Made by a program: the position numbers and the translations under genes
Part shown: piece by piece, positions 53,361 through 57,612 of the stretch
How positions within the stretch are numbered: position 1 is the first letter of the stretch
Layout of the letters: every line of letters begins with the position of its first letter
Sequence record: LC788711.1
From: Escherichia coli phage NG_S8
DNA: 64,000 bases
Reading direction: 5' to 3' (one strand)
Notes under the pieces: model-generated
Databases searched by the model: none
Told to the model about the DNA's origin: nothing
Seen by the model: only the letters and a program-made list of their open reading frames with translations

Positions 53361-53380
53361 CAGTTACTGAAAAATTTCAG

Positions 53381-53409
53381 TTGCTTAATCCTGTAATTCT
53401 TGATATAAT
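53381..53409 (+). promoter_or_regulatory. T5-type early promoter
   Basis: TTGCTT 53381-53386, TATAAT 53404-53409. Confidence 0.65.
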
Positions 53410-53467
53410 ATTCTCATAGTTTGAAAGAACTATTCTGTTTAATTCTTAATTAAGGAAATCGAAAAAT

Positions 53468-54261: not shown

Positions 54262-54570
54262 ATGAGCGATCAGGTAAATCAAAACTATGAAGGACACGTT
54301 GACGACCAGTCCATCATGCTTTGGGAGAAGGAGGGGGAACAAGTAAGACTAACCGTATCTGAATTTCGTGGGAATCTATACATGGGAATTCGTTACTGGC
54401 TCCAAGATATTACTGGAGAGTGGTTTCCAACGAAATCCGGCTTCTCTTTTCCTTATACCCTAGAAACTACATCACAGCTATTCTACGCTTTTACGCAAAT
54501 CCTCAGTGAATCCGAGGTCTTGCATGAAGTACAGAAACGAGCTGAAGAACTCAAAGCCAAGAATGCCTAG
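54262..54570 (+). CDS. hypothetical protein (102 aa)
   Basis: ORF track. Confidence 0.5.
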   Translation: MSDQVNQNYEGHVDDQSIMLWEKEGEQVRLTVSEFRGNLYMGIRYWLQDITGEWFPTKSGFSFPYTLETTSQLFYAFTQILSESEVLHEVQKRAEELKAKNA

Positions 54571-54588
54571 TTCTTGGCTTTTTCTTTA
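54555..54588 (+). terminator. intrinsic terminator
   Basis: hairpin agccaagaa/ttcttggct followed by T-run. Confidence 0.6.
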
Positions 54589-54597
54589 TAAATGTAC

Positions 54598-54626
54598 TTG
54601 CTTTCGACTCAGTTTTCATATATAAT
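54598..54626 (+). promoter_or_regulatory. T5-type early promoter
   Basis: TTGCTT 54598-54603, TATAAT 54621-54626. Confidence 0.65.
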
Positions 54627-54637
54627 ATTTATATAAA

Positions 54638-54856
54638 TTGATGAGAGGATCAATTATGGCAATGACAATAACACTTCCAAAGATTCAAGCAAAACTTAAT
54701 TTGCTCTCCATAGCAAGAATCAATTACCAGGATAGTATCGGCACTCCAAACCAGAAAGCGTACAAAGATGCGTGGTTGAAAGAAGCTGCTGATTTAGCTG
54801 GTATGGCTGCTCAGTATAATAAAGAACTCAAAATGGAAATCGCAGACGATGAATAA
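54638..54856 (+). CDS. hypothetical protein (72 aa)
   Basis: ORF track. Confidence 0.45.
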   Translation: MMRGSIMAMTITLPKIQAKLNLLSIARINYQDSIGTPNQKAYKDAWLKEAADLAGMAAQYNKELKMEIADDE

Positions 54857-55820
54857 TGTAAAAGACTTTATCAAACGTTGTCAAGAAGCGTACTACCAGG
54901 GAATGAGTCTTATTTCCGATGAAGAATATGATCGTCTGATTAAAAGATTCCCACTAGAGGAAGAAATCGGACCGAAAGGTGATATCCCTCATTTGTATCG
55001 TATGTATTCTTTACAGAAAGTCTATTACGATCGTGGTGATAAAGCTCCATTTAACCCATTAGGTCAGGTTGAAACTGATAAGTTAGATGGTTGTGCGATT
55101 TCTCTATTATATATTAATGGTGAATTTGTTCAAGCGTTAACTCGTGGTAACGGTATTCTAGGGAATGATGTAACGCATAATGTTAAAATGCTGAACATTC
55201 CCAAAACTATTTCCCAAAAAGTACCAACTCAAATCACTGGTGAAGTTCTCATTACTAAAGAAGTAGAGAACAAACGTAACTACGCTTCGGGTGCTATTAA
55301 CCTGAAAGATAGTGATGATTTCATGCAACGTATTGGTGAAGGTGGTTTAATCTTCGTTGCATATGGTATCCAGTGTTCAGCGGAAACAGTCGGTATTACA
55401 GAAGCCTATTTAAAAGATATGCTTTGGCTAGAGAATGAGAACTTCTTGACAGTTATTAATGTTCGTTCCTTCTTTAAATGGATTCCGACAGATGGTAAAG
55501 TTGTTCGCATTAACGACAACAATAAATTCTTCCGTGAAGGTTGGACTAATAAATTTCCTCGTGGTGCATTTGCTATTAAAGAGGATGAAGAAGGCGAAAT
55601 TACCACACTTGTTAAAGTTGAATGGCAAGTAGGGGCTTCTGGTAAAGTAACTCCAGTTGGTTATTTCGAACCGGTGATTATTGATGATGCCACAATCGTT
55701 AAAGCAACTCTTAATAACGTTGATTATATTAACGCTCTCGATTTAGAGATCGGTTGCCAGATTCGAGTGATTCGTGCTGGTGGTGTAATCCCTTGTATAG
55801 TAGAGCGAGTATACGACTAA
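54849..55820 (+). CDS. ligA: NAD-dependent DNA ligase, N-terminal adenylation/OB part (323 aa)
   Basis: adenylation motif KLDG (TDKLDGCAISLLY); ends before Zn-finger/HhH/BRCT regions. Confidence 0.75.
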   Translation: MNNVKDFIKRCQEAYYQGMSLISDEEYDRLIKRFPLEEEIGPKGDIPHLYRMYSLQKVYYDRGDKAPFNPLGQVETDKLDGCAISLLYINGEFVQALTRGNGILGNDVTHNVKMLNIPKTISQKVPTQITGEVLITKEVENKRNYASGAINLKDSDDFMQRIGEGGLIFVAYGIQCSAETVGITEAYLKDMLWLENENFLTVINVRSFFKWIPTDGKVVRINDNNKFFREGWTNKFPRGAFAIKEDEEGEITTLVKVEWQVGASGKVTPVGYFEPVIIDDATIVKATLNNVDYINALDLEIGCQIRVIRAGGVIPCIVERVYD

Positions 55821-55963
55821 TTCGTAACCCTTTGCTACCCGTTTACCATGTCGGAATTATAAAGTGGTTATTGACATTTTCGCCGCTTAGGTATATACTA
55901 TTATCATTCAGTTGAGGGATAGAAAGTTATGGCGAGGGTAAGCAAAGTTAGTTAAAATTGTAG

Positions 55964-55992
55964 TTGCTAAATGCTTAAATACTTGCTATAAT
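55964..55992 (+). promoter_or_regulatory. T5-type promoter between the two ligase parts
   Basis: TTGCTA 55964-55969, TATAAT 55987-55992. Confidence 0.6.
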
Positions 55993-56019
55993 ATTTATAT
56001 AAATTGATAAGGAAGAAAT

Positions 56020-56802
56020 TTGATGAAAATCGAAATTCCAACACAATGTCCCTCTTGTGGTTCTAAGCTAGATCTTGTCAACGGGCAATTATTCTGTAGG
56101 AATAAGTCCAACTGTCCAGCGCAATCAAGTAAGTTAATCGAGAACTTCTGCACAAAAATGAAGTTAAAGGGCTTTGGCCCGAAAACTATTGAGAAGCTGG
56201 AGCTGACTAAGATCTCAGAACTGTTTTACCTGACCGAAGAAGATTTGGTCGGAGCTGTGGGTAGCAAGGTTGCCGCTAAATTGATTAGCGAGTTAAATAC
56301 TAAGGTTCGCGGAGACATTAACTTTGGTTCAGTTCTCGGTTCTTTAGGAATTCCTCTTATTGGAGAGGTTGCAGCAAAGAAACTGTCCCAAAATTGCACT
56401 AGCTTCCACGATGTGAAGGCTGACGGCAAGGCTGGAGAAAATTACAAAACCTGGCTAAATTCCCCACAAGGCAAGGATGTTATTGAATTACCGTGGAAAT
56501 TCTCAACGGGTATTCGAGGTGCTAAAGCGGATATCATCATTACAGATGATTTAGTTGCCCAGCCAAATGGAATCACGGTCTGTATTACCGGATCTTTGCA
56601 AGATTTTGCAAATCGAACGGATGCAACAAACTATTTAGAAAGTCTAGGATATACGGTTAAGAAGTCCGTTACCAAAGACGTCAAATACCTAATCTGTGAG
56701 GATGAATCAAAACGTTCTTCCTCATCTTATAAGAAAGCCGAAACGAATGGGATAGAAATCCTGTCGATTAAAGAACTATTGGAGAAAAATAATAATGTCT
56801 AA
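56020..56802 (+). CDS. ligB: NAD-dependent DNA ligase, C-terminal Zn-finger/HhH/BRCT part (260 aa)
   Basis: Cys4 zinc finger CPSCGSKL...CRNKSNCPAQ, HhH-like GFGPKT, BRCT-like C-terminus. Confidence 0.75.
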   Translation: MMKIEIPTQCPSCGSKLDLVNGQLFCRNKSNCPAQSSKLIENFCTKMKLKGFGPKTIEKLELTKISELFYLTEEDLVGAVGSKVAAKLISELNTKVRGDINFGSVLGSLGIPLIGEVAAKKLSQNCTSFHDVKADGKAGENYKTWLNSPQGKDVIELPWKFSTGIRGAKADIIITDDLVAQPNGITVCITGSLQDFANRTDATNYLESLGYTVKKSVTKDVKYLICEDESKRSSSSYKKAETNGIEILSIKELLEKNNNV

Positions 56803-57562
56803 ACTGAACTGGAACGTAGAAGGTGTAACCGAGTCTCTGAAAGCAAAAGCCACTGCTCTGGGTGTTGCTGTAATCTCTCAAGAACAAGTAGCTGCTATCG
56901 CTGCTGAACTGGCTACCGAGACTGGTAAAGACGTTACCGCTCGCTCTGTTGGCTCTAAGCTGCGTAAAGAAGGTTTCGAAGTACAGAAAGCAAACGAAGT
57001 ACAGAAATCCCCGTGGACTCCTGAGCAGGAAGCTGAACTGGTTGATTTCCTGAACGCTCATGCTGGTCAGTATACTTACGCTGAAATCGCTGCTGCTGTA
57101 GCTGGTGGTCAGTTCGGTGCTAAGCAGGTACAAGGTAAGATCCTGAGTCTGGAAATGACTGCTTCTGTTAAGCCAACCGAAAAAGCTGCTGCTGTTCGTT
57201 CCTTTACTCCTGACGAAGAAACTGATTTCGTTAATCAGGTTGTTGCTGGTGCTACTATTGAAGCTATCGCTGCTCACTTCGGTCGCAATATTAAGCAGAT
57301 CCGTGGTAAAGCTCTGAGTCTGCTTCGTGAAGGTCGTATCGCTGCTATGCCGGTACAGGAAACTTCAAGTGCTAAAACTCGTGAAGATCTGTTAGAAGGT
57401 CTGGATCTGGCTAACATGACTGTTGCTGAGATCGCTGAGAAAACTGGTAAGTCTGAGCGCGGTGTTAAATCTATGCTGTCTCGTCGTGGTCTGGTTGCTA
57501 AGGACTATGATGGTGCCGCTAAGCGTGCTAAACTGGATGCAAAAGCTGCGGCTGCTGAATAA
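56795..57562 (+). CDS. repeat-built DNA-binding protein, T5 D5-like (255 aa)
   Basis: four internal repeats of about 60 aa; Ala/Lys-rich with highly biased codons. Confidence 0.55.
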   Translation: MSKLNWNVEGVTESLKAKATALGVAVISQEQVAAIAAELATETGKDVTARSVGSKLRKEGFEVQKANEVQKSPWTPEQEAELVDFLNAHAGQYTYAEIAAAVAGGQFGAKQVQGKILSLEMTASVKPTEKAAAVRSFTPDEETDFVNQVVAGATIEAIAAHFGRNIKQIRGKALSLLREGRIAAMPVQETSSAKTREDLLEGLDLANMTVAEIAEKTGKSERGVKSMLSRRGLVAKDYDGAAKRAKLDAKAAAAE

Positions 57563-57580
57563 TCTGGTAAATTAAACCTA

Positions 57581-57612
57581 AGGGGAGGGGGCTATGCTCC
57601 TTCCCCTTTTTG
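57581..57612 (+). terminator. intrinsic terminator
   Basis: 10-bp GC-rich hairpin followed by ttttt. Confidence 0.65.

What the first reader, a model, noticed from the sequence alone, without database searches (positions are those of the whole stretch)
54849..56802. NAD-dependent DNA ligase encoded as two separate genes with a promoter in between
ORF 54849-55820 carries the adenylation lysine motif KLDG and stops with TAA. After a 199-bp non-coding spacer that contains a full promoter (55964-55992) and RBS, ORF 56020-56802 supplies the Cys4 zinc finger, HhH-like and BRCT-like regions. The enzyme would therefore assemble from two polypeptides. I recall T5 ligase being annotated as two subunits, but cannot verify that.
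Basis: partly seen in the sequence, partly recalled or inferred. Interest (0 to 1): 0.5.

Follow-up and report, generated by a model that had tools for sequence, protein, structure and literature searches.

The report
Two-subunit NAD-dependent ligase of T5-like phage
This T5-like Salmonella phage encodes its NAD-dependent DNA ligase as two adjacent genes (a catalytic half and a DNA-clamping half) separated by a promoter-bearing spacer; the arrangement is real but has been known since the 2005 T5 genome and was solved as a heterodimer on nicked DNA in 2026.

Summary
The window is Salmonella phage fuchur (T5-like, Demerecviridae). ORF A (54849-55820, 323 aa) carries domain Ia, the adenylation domain (KLDG, K78) and the OB fold. 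ORF B (true start ATG 56023, ends 56802, 259 aa) carries the Cys4 zinc finger, HhH and BRCT domains. The break lies in the OB/zinc-finger linker (E. coli LigA about 393/400).

The 202-nt spacer has 5-7 stops in every frame, no RNA-family match, and two conserved sigma-70 promoters, not one.

The split is not an artefact. It is present in over 400 phage genomes and down to about 50% identity (Vibrio phages).

It is already known. T5 records annotate dnlj1/dnlj2 with promoters T5P36/T5P37, the literature calls it the "split NAD+-dependent DNA ligase of T5", and PDB 9hu3/9i5i are the [quoted passage not shown] (55% identical to ORF A).

New context found here:
- Single-chain compact relatives (555-586 aa) exist.
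- The A-B gap varies between phages. Some relatives carry cargo genes there, including an endonuclease gene.
- The ORF B promoter is one of nine copies of a dispersed early-promoter cassette.

Verdict: ordinary member of a known kind; low interest.

The parts
54553..54581 (+). Terminator-like hairpin that closes the upstream transcription unit
   Evidence: 12-bp stem followed by a T run. The T5 record annotates a rho-independent terminator at the equivalent place.
54598..54626 (+). T5-type early promoter (TTGCTT-17-TATAAT) in front of the small ORF and ligase A operon; equivalent of T5P35
   Evidence: Read from the sequence. Its -10 and downstream 22-mer is identical to the one before ORF B. 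T5 annotates promoter T5P35 here. It falls below the threshold of the consensus scan because the -35 matches only 3 of 6.
54656..54856 (+). Small upstream ORF (66 aa as annotated, fuchur_58), function unknown, overlapping the ORF A start by 8 nt (ATGAATAA)
   Evidence: No Pfam hit. The overlap suggests translational coupling (inference).
54849..55820 (+). Ligase subunit A (323 aa): domain Ia, nucleotidyltransferase (adenylation) domain and OB fold; the catalytic half
   Evidence: Pfam DNA_ligase_aden 1.4e-23 and DNA_ligase_OB 9.4e-22. phrog_3359 3.5e-176. PDB 9hu3_A 1.4e-106. AF2 model pLDDT 88.8, TM 0.87 to 9hu3_A.
54849..54953 (+). Domain Ia (about aa 1-35): two helices carrying the NMN/NAD-recognition residues Y15/Y16, D24, Y27, D28
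   Evidence: Alignment to E. coli LigA Y22/H23, D32, Y35, D36. Helices 2-16 and 24-33 in the model. Y15 and Y27 are invariant in 61 homologs. The role of these residues comes from established knowledge of E. coli LigA.
55080..55091 (+). Motif I KLDG; K78 is the predicted adenylated lysine
   Evidence: Aligns with E. coli K115-L-D117-G118. K78, D80 and G81 are invariant in 61 homologs.
55596..55817 (+). OB-fold domain (aa 250-323); the last residue aligns with E. coli LigA about 393
   Evidence: Pfam OB 252-321. Aligned to 2owo 284-390. Junction mapping.
55821..56022 (+). 202-nt non-coding spacer; 32% GC; 5-7 stop codons in each frame; no RNA family or stable structure
   Evidence: stops, GC; no Rfam match in the spacer; fold z = -0.5; no remnant of the endonuclease found in relatives.
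55871..55899 (+). Promoter 1 in the spacer (TTGACA-17-TATACT, 11/12); equivalent of T5P36
   Evidence: Hexamers invariant in fuchur, T5, TrudiGerster, Klebsiella P5010 and Providencia PR1. Annotated as a putative early promoter in T5 and as a promoter in PR1.
55964..55992 (+).
   Evidence: Conserved across the five phages. Part of a cassette present 9 times in the window against 0.01 expected. T5 annotation T5P37 / 'repeat b copy 5'.
56009..56015 (+). Shine-Dalgarno-like AAGGAAG, 7 nt before the ATG of subunit B
   Evidence: Read from the sequence.
56023..56802 (+). Ligase subunit B (259 aa): Cys4 zinc finger, HhH domain and BRCT; the DNA-binding half
   Evidence: phrog_3498 8.1e-137. PDB 9hu3_B 2.2e-79 and E. 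coli LigA 402-529 and 585-666. Pfam BRCT 1.1e-8. Annotated start.
56023..56121 (+). Zinc finger (about aa 1-33) with C9, C12, C25, C31
   Evidence: Aligned to E. coli C408, C411, C426, C432. All four are conserved in 7 phages (the third Cys is shifted by one column in the MAFFT output).
56122..56517 (+). Helix-hairpin-helix domain (about aa 34-165), shortened by 12 residues relative to E. coli
   Evidence: Alignment to 2owo 433-529. The glycines equivalent to G455, G489 and G521 are conserved. Pfam HHH_2 is only sub-threshold. The boundaries are approximate.
56554..56799 (+). BRCT domain (about aa 178-259)
   Evidence: Pfam BRCT 183-255, 35.6 bits against a cut-off of 21.3. Aligned to E. coli 585-666.
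56795..57562 (+). D5 protein gene; its ATG overlaps the end of subunit B by 8 nt, so it lies in the same transcription unit as B
   Evidence: The same B-then-D5 order is seen in T5, PR1, Proteus, Vibrio and Klebsiella phages.
57580..57608 (+). Strong terminator-like hairpin that closes the ligB-D5 unit
   Evidence: 13-bp stem with 8 GC pairs followed by a T run.

Best explanation
This is the T5-type heterodimeric NAD+-dependent DNA ligase, carried here by Salmonella phage fuchur.

Origin (inferred). A compact phage LigA gene has been split at the flexible linker between the OB fold and the zinc finger.

Subunit A (Ia, NTase, OB) holds all the chemistry. Domain Ia and the NTase pocket bind NAD+, K78 is adenylated, and AMP is passed to the 5' phosphate of the nick.

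Subunit B (Zn finger, HhH, BRCT) supplies the DNA-binding half of the clamp. Without it, A-like fragments of other LigAs adenylate themselves but do not seal DNA. The two chains associate non-covalently around nicked DNA, as shown for the PR1 homolog.

Expression (inferred).
- A is made from an upstream early promoter, together with a small overlapping ORF.
- No terminator-like site follows A. B therefore receives read-through transcripts plus transcripts from two conserved promoters in the spacer.
- B is translationally linked to the D5 DNA-binding protein gene that overlaps its end.

Shown here: the ORFs, domains, catalytic residues, split point, promoter conservation and family-wide distribution.
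Shown elsewhere: heterodimer on nicked DNA for PR1 (PDB titles).
Inferred: activity and assembly of the fuchur proteins, transcript structure, and an excess of B over A.
For: - Identity of the locus: 100% match to phage fuchur, annotated as subunits A and B. T5 annotates dnlj1/dnlj2 with promoters T5P36/T5P37.
- Domains: Pfam. In PHROGs, A matches positions 9-381 and B positions 388-654 of the fused profile phrog_3869.
- Split point: it maps to E. coli LigA about 393/394-402 in 7 phages.
- Catalytic and structural residues: K78, D80, G81, R99, E132, R143, D215, K244, R309 and Cys4 are conserved.
- Solved homolog: PDB 9hu3/9i5i 'PR1 phage heterodimeric DNA ligase in complex with 21-mer nicked DNA'. 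Chains match at 1.4e-106 and 2.2e-79, and the model of A has TM 0.87.
- Distribution: the 120 best homologs of A are all 310-340 aa. Those of B are 247-263 aa apart from two truncated entries.
- Need for B: an A-like LigN fragment is adenylated but inactive in ligation (PMC1684257).
- Promoters: both spacer promoters are invariant across genera.
- No recoding route: stops in all frames, no intron or other RNA family.
Against: - Nothing here tests the fuchur proteins biochemically.
- Three residues reported as important in E. coli LigA differ: R208 to N, K290 to R, R333 to A. The same changes occur in PR1, whose complex with nicked DNA was solved.
- The HhH and zinc-finger Pfam matches are below their cut-offs.
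- The promoters are consensus and conservation calls only; no transcription start sites were mapped.
- No publication for 9hu3 could be read, so only the entry titles are available.
Confidence: 0.93

Rival explanations
1. The two ORFs are the decaying remains of a disrupted ligase gene (a pseudogene), and the phage relies on the host LigA.
For: A stop codon and a non-coding spacer interrupt what is a single gene in bacteria.
Against: - Both halves stay intact, with invariant catalytic residues, across hundreds of genomes and down to about 50% identity.
- Each half has its own RBS, and promoters precede it.
- The PR1 homolog was solved as a heterodimer bound to nicked DNA.
Confidence: 0.01
2. 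A single fused polypeptide is made after all, through a sequencing error, read-through, frameshifting, an intron or protein splicing.
For: Fused compact relatives of 555-586 aa exist.
Against: - 428 independent records hold the same arrangement.
- The spacer is 202 nt with 5-7 stops in every frame, and A and B are in different frames.
- There is no Rfam intron or ribozyme, and the fold is not unusually stable.
- A ends and B begins exactly at the linker, with no intein-like extra sequence.
- The PDB entries have separate chains of 339 and 248 aa.
Confidence: 0.01
3. A and B work independently. A is a self-sufficient minimal ligase. B is a separate DNA-binding or BRCT scaffold protein whose real partner is D5 or the replisome.
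For: - B has its own promoters and is translationally linked to D5 rather than to A.
- In other genera, unrelated genes sit between A and B.
Against: - The PDB entry titles describe a heterodimeric ligase on nicked DNA.
- A-like truncations of LigN are ligation-dead (PMC1684257).
- A and B stay adjacent, in the same order and on the same strand, in every genome examined.
- A further role for B beyond the ligase is not excluded.
Confidence: 0.05
4. On origin rather than function: the fission was caused by insertion of a mobile gene (a free-standing homing-type endonuclease or a promoter-bearing cassette) into the OB/Zn linker. The bare spacer in fuchur is what is left after the cargo was lost.
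For: - The gap varies between phages. Klebsiella phage vB_Kpn24-P3 has a 232-aa treble-clef and T5orf172 endonuclease (phrog_681 3e-45) exactly at the 3' end of A, while its close relative P5010 has none.
- Vibrio phages carry a DprA-like gene and small ORFs in the gap.
- The promoter before B is a copy of a dispersed cassette.
- Fused compact relatives exist.
Against: - No remnant of any such gene is detectable in the fuchur spacer.
- The endonuclease insertion is clearly secondary: the promoters and the split are already present in its relatives.
- The tree is unresolved, so the ancestral state and the number of fission events are unknown.
Confidence: 0.2

Closest known systems
Providencia phage vB_PreS_PR1 heterodimeric DNA ligase (PDB 9hu3, 9i5i; released January and February 2026)
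   Same: Two chains with the same domain split: A carries Ia, NTase and OB, and B carries Zn, HhH and BRCT. E-values are 1.4e-106 and 2.2e-79, with 56.5% identity over A plus B. The genes are adjacent and B is followed by the D5-like gene. Both spacer promoters are conserved.
   Different: It belongs to a different genus (Priunavirus). PR1 A is 333 aa and B is 248 aa. The PR1 record annotates a terminator just after A that has no terminator-like counterpart in fuchur.
Bacteriophage T5 ligase subunits (dnlj1/dnlj2 in AY587007; ligA AAU05253 and ligB AAU05254)
   Same: 95.2% identity over A plus B, the same 202-nt spacer, and two annotated putative early promoters, T5P36 and T5P37. The literature describes it as a split NAD+-dependent ligase (PMC1684257, PMC3632103).
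   Different: Only point differences. T5 is a Tequintavirus and fuchur is an Epseptimavirus.
E. coli LigA (PDB 2OWO, bound to nicked DNA-adenylate) and other bacterial NAD+ ligases
   Same: The same six modules in the same order. Motif I lysine, E173, R200, D285, K314, R379 and the Cys4 finger are conserved.
   Different: - LigA is a single 671-aa chain, against 323 plus 259 aa here.
- Identity is 29.6%.
- Fuchur lacks five segments in A (E. coli 15-22, 49-66, 91-99, 180-195, 269-284) and one in the HhH domain (538-549).
- R208 is N, K290 is R and R333 is A.
Compact single-chain phage-type LigAs (P0275 557 aa, P0276 566 aa, P0292, P0294, P0302, P0303; PHROG phrog_3869)
   Same: The same compact architecture, with total length close to A plus B. 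They are 41-46% identical to A, and B-like motifs (QLFC, KGFG, BRCT) continue in the same chain.
   Different: They are fused, with a short linker (for example NVLSSGTGRIIAP) running across the point where fuchur has a stop codon, spacer and start codon. Their genomic source could not be found.
LigN-deltaC of Haloferax volcanii (artificial Ia, NTase and OB fragment)
   Same: It was cut at the equivalent place and made explicitly to mimic the T5 split. It is adenylated normally but is inactive in ligation (PMC1684257).
   Different: It is an engineered truncation of a single-chain archaeal enzyme. Its C-terminal half could not be expressed, so activity was not reconstituted.

Membership tests
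NAD+-dependent DNA ligase (LigA family) | Nucleotidyltransferase domain with the motif I lysine (KxDG) and motifs III, IV and V | tested here: met
   Pfam PF01653 84.2 bits against a cut-off of 27. K78-L-D80-G81, E132, D215 and K244 align with E. coli K115, D117, G118, E173, D285 and K314. K290 is replaced by R in all seven T5-like phages compared and is invariant R220 in 61 homologs.
NAD+-dependent DNA ligase (LigA family) | N-terminal domain Ia that confers NAD+ (NMN) specificity | tested here: met
   The sequence YYQGMSLISDEEYD aligns with the E. coli Y22/H23...D32..Y35-D36 region. There are two N-terminal helices in the model. The domain is shortened. NAD+ use itself was not tested.
NAD+-dependent DNA ligase (LigA family) | OB-fold domain after the NTase domain | tested here: met
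   Pfam PF03120 77.1 bits against a cut-off of 32.9. R309, V313 and I314 correspond to E. coli R379, V383 and I384.
NAD+-dependent DNA ligase (LigA family) | Cys4 zinc finger, HhH domain and BRCT domain | tested here: met
   Four cysteines are conserved. B 3-122 aligns with 2owo 402-529, and B 169-253 with 585-666. BRCT is above its cut-off. The HHH_2 and ZBD Pfam matches are below theirs.
NAD+-dependent DNA ligase (LigA family) | All modules on one polypeptide (the canonical bacterial form) | tested here: not met
   A stop codon, a 202-nt spacer with stops in all frames, and a separate start codon. This is the feature that defines the split sub-type.
NAD+-dependent DNA ligase (LigA family) | NAD+-dependent nick sealing | not testable with these tools
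   This needs a biochemical assay. It is inferred from the conserved residues and from the PR1 complex with nicked DNA.
T5-type heterodimeric (split) NAD+ ligase of Demerecviridae (phrog_3359 plus phrog_3498; PDB 9hu3) | Subunit A of about 310-340 aa that ends at the OB fold | tested here: met
   phrog_3359 3.5e-176 over its full length. 9hu3_A 1.4e-106. Junction mapping.
T5-type heterodimeric (split) NAD+ ligase of Demerecviridae (phrog_3359 plus phrog_3498; PDB 9hu3) | Subunit B of about 247-263 aa that starts at the zinc finger | tested here: met
   phrog_3498 8.1e-137 over its full length. 9hu3_B 2.2e-79, residues 1-255 against 1-244.
T5-type heterodimeric (split) NAD+ ligase of Demerecviridae (phrog_3359 plus phrog_3498; PDB 9hu3) | A then B on the same strand within the early replication gene block, with B followed by the D5 gene | tested here: met
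T5-type heterodimeric (split) NAD+ ligase of Demerecviridae (phrog_3359 plus phrog_3498; PDB 9hu3) | A and B form a heterodimer on nicked DNA | not testable with these tools
   Shown for the PR1 homolog according to the PDB entry titles. For fuchur it is inferred from 56.5% identity.

The most novel reading that the evidence does not exclude
The split is not a neutral fission but a regulatory device. B has two promoters of its own and is co-expressed with the D5 DNA-binding protein, while A is made from a different promoter. The phage could therefore vary the A:B ratio during infection, or use B for a second job. One consequence could be that ligase activity is limited at certain times, so that the site-specific nicks typical of T5-type genomes survive into packaged DNA. 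Fissions or re-fusions within the compact phage LigA clade may also have happened more than once.
Probability: 0.1. Interest if true: 0.45.

Novelty: already known. Interest (0 to 1): 0.12.

Why it matters
There is little new here. The split T5 ligase has been on record since the 2005 T5 genome, is routinely annotated, and a homologous heterodimer has been solved on nicked DNA.

The locus remains a neat natural example of a multidomain DNA-repair enzyme cut at a domain linker and reassembled non-covalently. That is useful for teaching and for ligase engineering.

The side observations give material for an evolutionary study of gene fission in phages, but they do not change the picture. These are the fused compact relatives, the A-B gap that accepts cargo genes including an endonuclease, and the promoter cassette duplicated in front of B.

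Tried and rejected
- **Intron, ribozyme or structured RNA in the spacer.** There is no Rfam match in the spacer; the only hit in 54500-57000 is a far sub-threshold Ysr251 match inside ORF A. The spacer fold is no better than shuffles, z = -0.5.
- **Read-through or frameshift fusion.** Rejected: 5-7 stops in each frame.
- **Remnant of a mobile element in the fuchur spacer.** tblastn with the Kpn24-P3 endonuclease and the Kamaji gap protein found nothing meaningful in the spacer or anywhere in the window.
- **Homing endonuclease as the general content of the gap.** Most gap ORFs in Proteus and Vibrio phages have no Pfam or PHROG match, and one is DprA-like.
- **Independent split in Serratia jumbo phage 2050HW.** Its ligase is fragmented near the N-terminus (65, 59 and 535 aa). 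That is a different situation, perhaps frameshifts, and was not pursued.
- **Genomic context of the fused compact relative P0275.** The viral-contig scan returned no locus. In isolated phages its best matches are the split T5-like genes.
- **Phylogeny to count fission events.** The NJ tree is star-like and unresolved.
- **Publication behind 9hu3/9i5i.** It was not in the held library. Searching for the promoter sequence in papers also found nothing.
Full report
**Source and observation**

The window region 54600-57000 is 100% identical to Salmonella phage fuchur (MT074458; Demerecviridae, Epseptimavirus). It is 99% or more identical to dozens of other T5-like phages. In all, 456 phage records match, and 428 of them hold at least 80% of the query.

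The mechanical ORF list confirms ORF A at 54849-55820 (323 aa) and ORF B ending at 56802. [quoted passage not shown] The non-coding gap is therefore 202 nt.

**Domain content**

| ORF | Evidence |
|---|---|
| A | Pfam DNA_ligase_aden 1.4e-23; DNA_ligase_OB 9.4e-22 |
| B | Pfam BRCT 1.1e-8 (above cut-off); HhH and zinc-finger models below cut-off |
| A | matches positions 9-381 of the fused phage-ligase profile phrog_3869 |
| B | matches positions 388-654 of the same profile |
| A, B | each also has a dedicated split-form family: phrog_3359 (A), phrog_3498 (B) |

I aligned A plus B from seven T5-like phages to E. coli LigA. A ends at E. coli residue 391-393 and B starts at 394-402. This is the linker between the OB fold and the zinc finger, and only about six linker residues are missing.

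These residues are conserved:
- the domain Ia residues Y15/Y16, D24, Y27, D28;
- the motif I lysine K78 (KLDG), plus D80, G81, R99, E132, R143, D215 and K244;
- the OB residues R309, V313, I314;
- the four zinc-finger cysteines of B (C9, C12, C25, C31).

The enzyme is a compact LigA. It lacks E. coli segments 15-22, 49-66, 91-99, 180-195, 269-284 and 538-549. It also differs at R208 (N), K290 (R) and R333 (A).

**The spacer**

All three frames contain 5-7 stop codons, and A and B are in different frames, so read-through or frameshifting cannot fuse them. Rfam gives no match in the spacer. The predicted fold is no more stable than shuffled sequence.

It also finds a second, better match at 55871-55899 (TTGACA-17-TATACT). 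The T5 record annotates two putative early promoters, T5P36 and T5P37, at the same places. The PR1 record annotates a promoter and a terminator there.

I aligned the spacers of fuchur, T5, TrudiGerster, Klebsiella P5010 and Providencia PR1. The hexamers of both promoters are invariant while much of the rest has diverged.

The -10 and downstream 22-mer of the second promoter (TATAATATTTATATAAATTGAT) occurs nine times in the 64-kb window with up to three mismatches, against 0.01 expected. One exact copy lies at 54621, in front of the small ORF and ligase A operon. So a promoter between the two genes is normal for the promoter-dense early region of T5-like phages.

Two gene overlaps of 8 nt each shape the operons: the ORF A start overlaps the end of a small upstream ORF, and the end of B overlaps the start of the D5 gene. 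Terminator-like hairpins lie at 54553-54581 and 57580-57608, and none follows A. From this I infer two nested transcription units, with B and D5 receiving extra transcription.

**Distribution and evolution**

The split is kept throughout the Demerecviridae: T5, Epseptimavirus, Klebsiella phages, Proteus phages, Providencia PR1, and Vibrio phages at about 50% identity. In the 5.8-billion-protein search, the 120 best homologs of A are all 310-340 aa. Those of B are 247-263 aa apart from two truncated entries.

The exhaustive representative search adds single-chain relatives of 555-586 aa that are 41-46% identical to A (P0275, P0276, P0292, P0294, P0302, P0303). In these the B-like part continues in the same chain across a short linker.

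A neighbour-joining tree places these fused compact forms at the base of the split forms and among them. It is star-like, so it cannot say whether fission happened once.

The gap itself varies:

| Phage | Content of the A-B gap |
|---|---|
| T5, fuchur, P5010 | bare spacer of about 200 bp |
| Proteus phage 2 | a 55-aa ORF |
| Vibrio D239, D254 | one to three small ORFs |
| Vibrio AG74 | a 113-aa ORF and a DprA-like gene (phrog_768, 5e-49) |
| Serratia Kamaji | a 204-aa ORF of unknown function |
| Klebsiella vB_Kpn24-P3 | a 232-aa treble-clef zinc-finger and T5orf172 endonuclease (phrog_681, 3e-45) |

The Kpn24-P3 endonuclease gene replaces 45 bp at the 3' end of the A gene relative to P5010 and leaves both promoters intact. 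The fuchur spacer holds no remnant of such a gene.

**What is already known**

[quoted passage not shown] It reports that an equivalent Ia, NTase and OB fragment of Haloferax LigN is adenylated normally but is inactive in ligation.
- PMC3632103 lists T5 ligA and ligB.
- PMC4319617 mentions the A and B subunits in phage Stitch.
- The PDB holds 9hu3 and 9i5i. Chain A (339 aa) matches ORF A at 1.4e-106, and chain B (248 aa) matches ORF B at 2.2e-79. The chain B sequence is 100% that of Providencia phage vB_PreS_PR1.
- An AlphaFold model of ORF A (pLDDT 88.8) retrieves 9hu3_A with TM 0.87 and 55% identity. The entries are titled 'PR1 phage heterodimeric DNA ligase in complex with 21-mer nicked DNA containing phage nick sequence' (released 2026-01-14) and '...(random sequence)' (released 2026-02-18).
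- I could not find the accompanying paper in the held library.

**Mechanism**

- Subunit A carries out NAD+ binding, self-adenylation at K78 and AMP transfer. This follows from the conserved residues and from established LigA enzymology.
- Subunit B provides the zinc-finger, HhH and BRCT DNA-binding half that LigA needs for the steps after adenylation. This rests on the LigN truncation result.
- The two chains assemble around nicked DNA. This is shown for PR1 by the PDB titles and inferred for fuchur from 56.5% identity.

The rival readings are contradicted, or at best weakly supported, by the evidence above. These are a pseudogene, recoding to a single chain, and independent functions for A and B. 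An origin of the fission by insertion of a mobile or promoter-bearing cassette is plausible but unproven.

**Verdict**

The feature is already known, so interest is low.

Noticed in passing
It is conserved out to Providencia PR1 and corresponds to T5P36. Why two tandem promoters precede ligB-D5 is unexplained; D5 may be needed in large amounts.
   Followed up: partly
window 55912-55956: A conserved TTGAGGGA element and a mini-ORF (ATG GCG AGG GTA AGC AAA GTT AGT TAA, 8 codons, 55930-55956) lie between the two spacer promoters. PR1 has a 9-codon counterpart, but P5010 has TTG in place of the ATG. It may be just the initial transcribed region of promoter 1.
   Followed up: no
window 9614, 10412, 17075, 19427, 22685, 26838, 31788 (- strand); 54621, 55987 (+ strand): Nine copies of the 22-mer TATAATATTTATATAAATTGAT (-10 hexamer plus initial transcribed region) with up to 3 mismatches, against 0.01 expected. 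This is a dispersed T5-type early-promoter cassette ('repeat b' in the T5 record). The strand switches between the two halves of the window.
   Followed up: partly
window 53371-53424: Another T5-type promoter (AAAATTTCAGTTGCTTAATCCTGTAATTCTTGATATAAT...) lies upstream of the D3 gene. It is 76% identical to the ligB promoter region. From memory it resembles the classic strong T5 promoter PD/E20, which I did not verify.
   Followed up: no
L011 (Klebsiella phage vB_Kpn24-P3) 1759-2457: A 232-aa treble-clef zinc-finger and T5orf172 endonuclease gene sits between ligase A and B. It replaces 45 bp at the 3' end of ligA relative to phage P5010 (96.9% and 94.0% identical flanks). This looks like a presence/absence polymorphism of a free-standing homing-type endonuclease.
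   Followed up: partly
L004 (Vibrio phage AG74) 3804-4364: A DprA-like recombination-mediator gene (phrog_768, 5e-49) and a 113-aa ORF of unknown function lie between the two ligase genes. Other Vibrio, Proteus and Serratia relatives carry different small ORFs of unknown function there (L003 3492-3659, L005 3457-3753, L012 1870-2484, L013 1811-2575).
   Followed up: partly
L010 (Serratia jumbo phage 2050HW) 3106-5090: Its NAD-dependent ligase is annotated as three consecutive pieces (65, 59 and 535 aa), broken near the N-terminus. This break point differs from the T5-type split and may reflect frameshifts or sequencing errors.
   Followed up: no
proteins P0275, P0276, P0292, P0294, P0302, P0303: These are single-chain compact LigAs of 555-586 aa, 41-46% identical to subunit A, with a B-like C-terminal half. 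They are interleaved with split forms in a poorly resolved tree. Their genomes of origin were not found.
   Followed up: partly
window 54849-54856 and 56795-56802: Both ligase genes take part in 8-nt start/stop overlaps: ATGAATAA with the upstream 66-aa ORF, and ATGTCTAA with the D5 gene. This suggests translational coupling of A to the small ORF and of D5 to B.
   Followed up: no
one search hit list (MG065642 'Campylobacter phage A148'; Listeria entries): Some T5-like sequences 99% identical to this region are deposited under implausible host or organism names (Campylobacter or Listeria phage; proteins labelled Enterococcus faecalis or Brucella melitensis). These are probably contamination or mislabelling in public records.
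   Followed up: no
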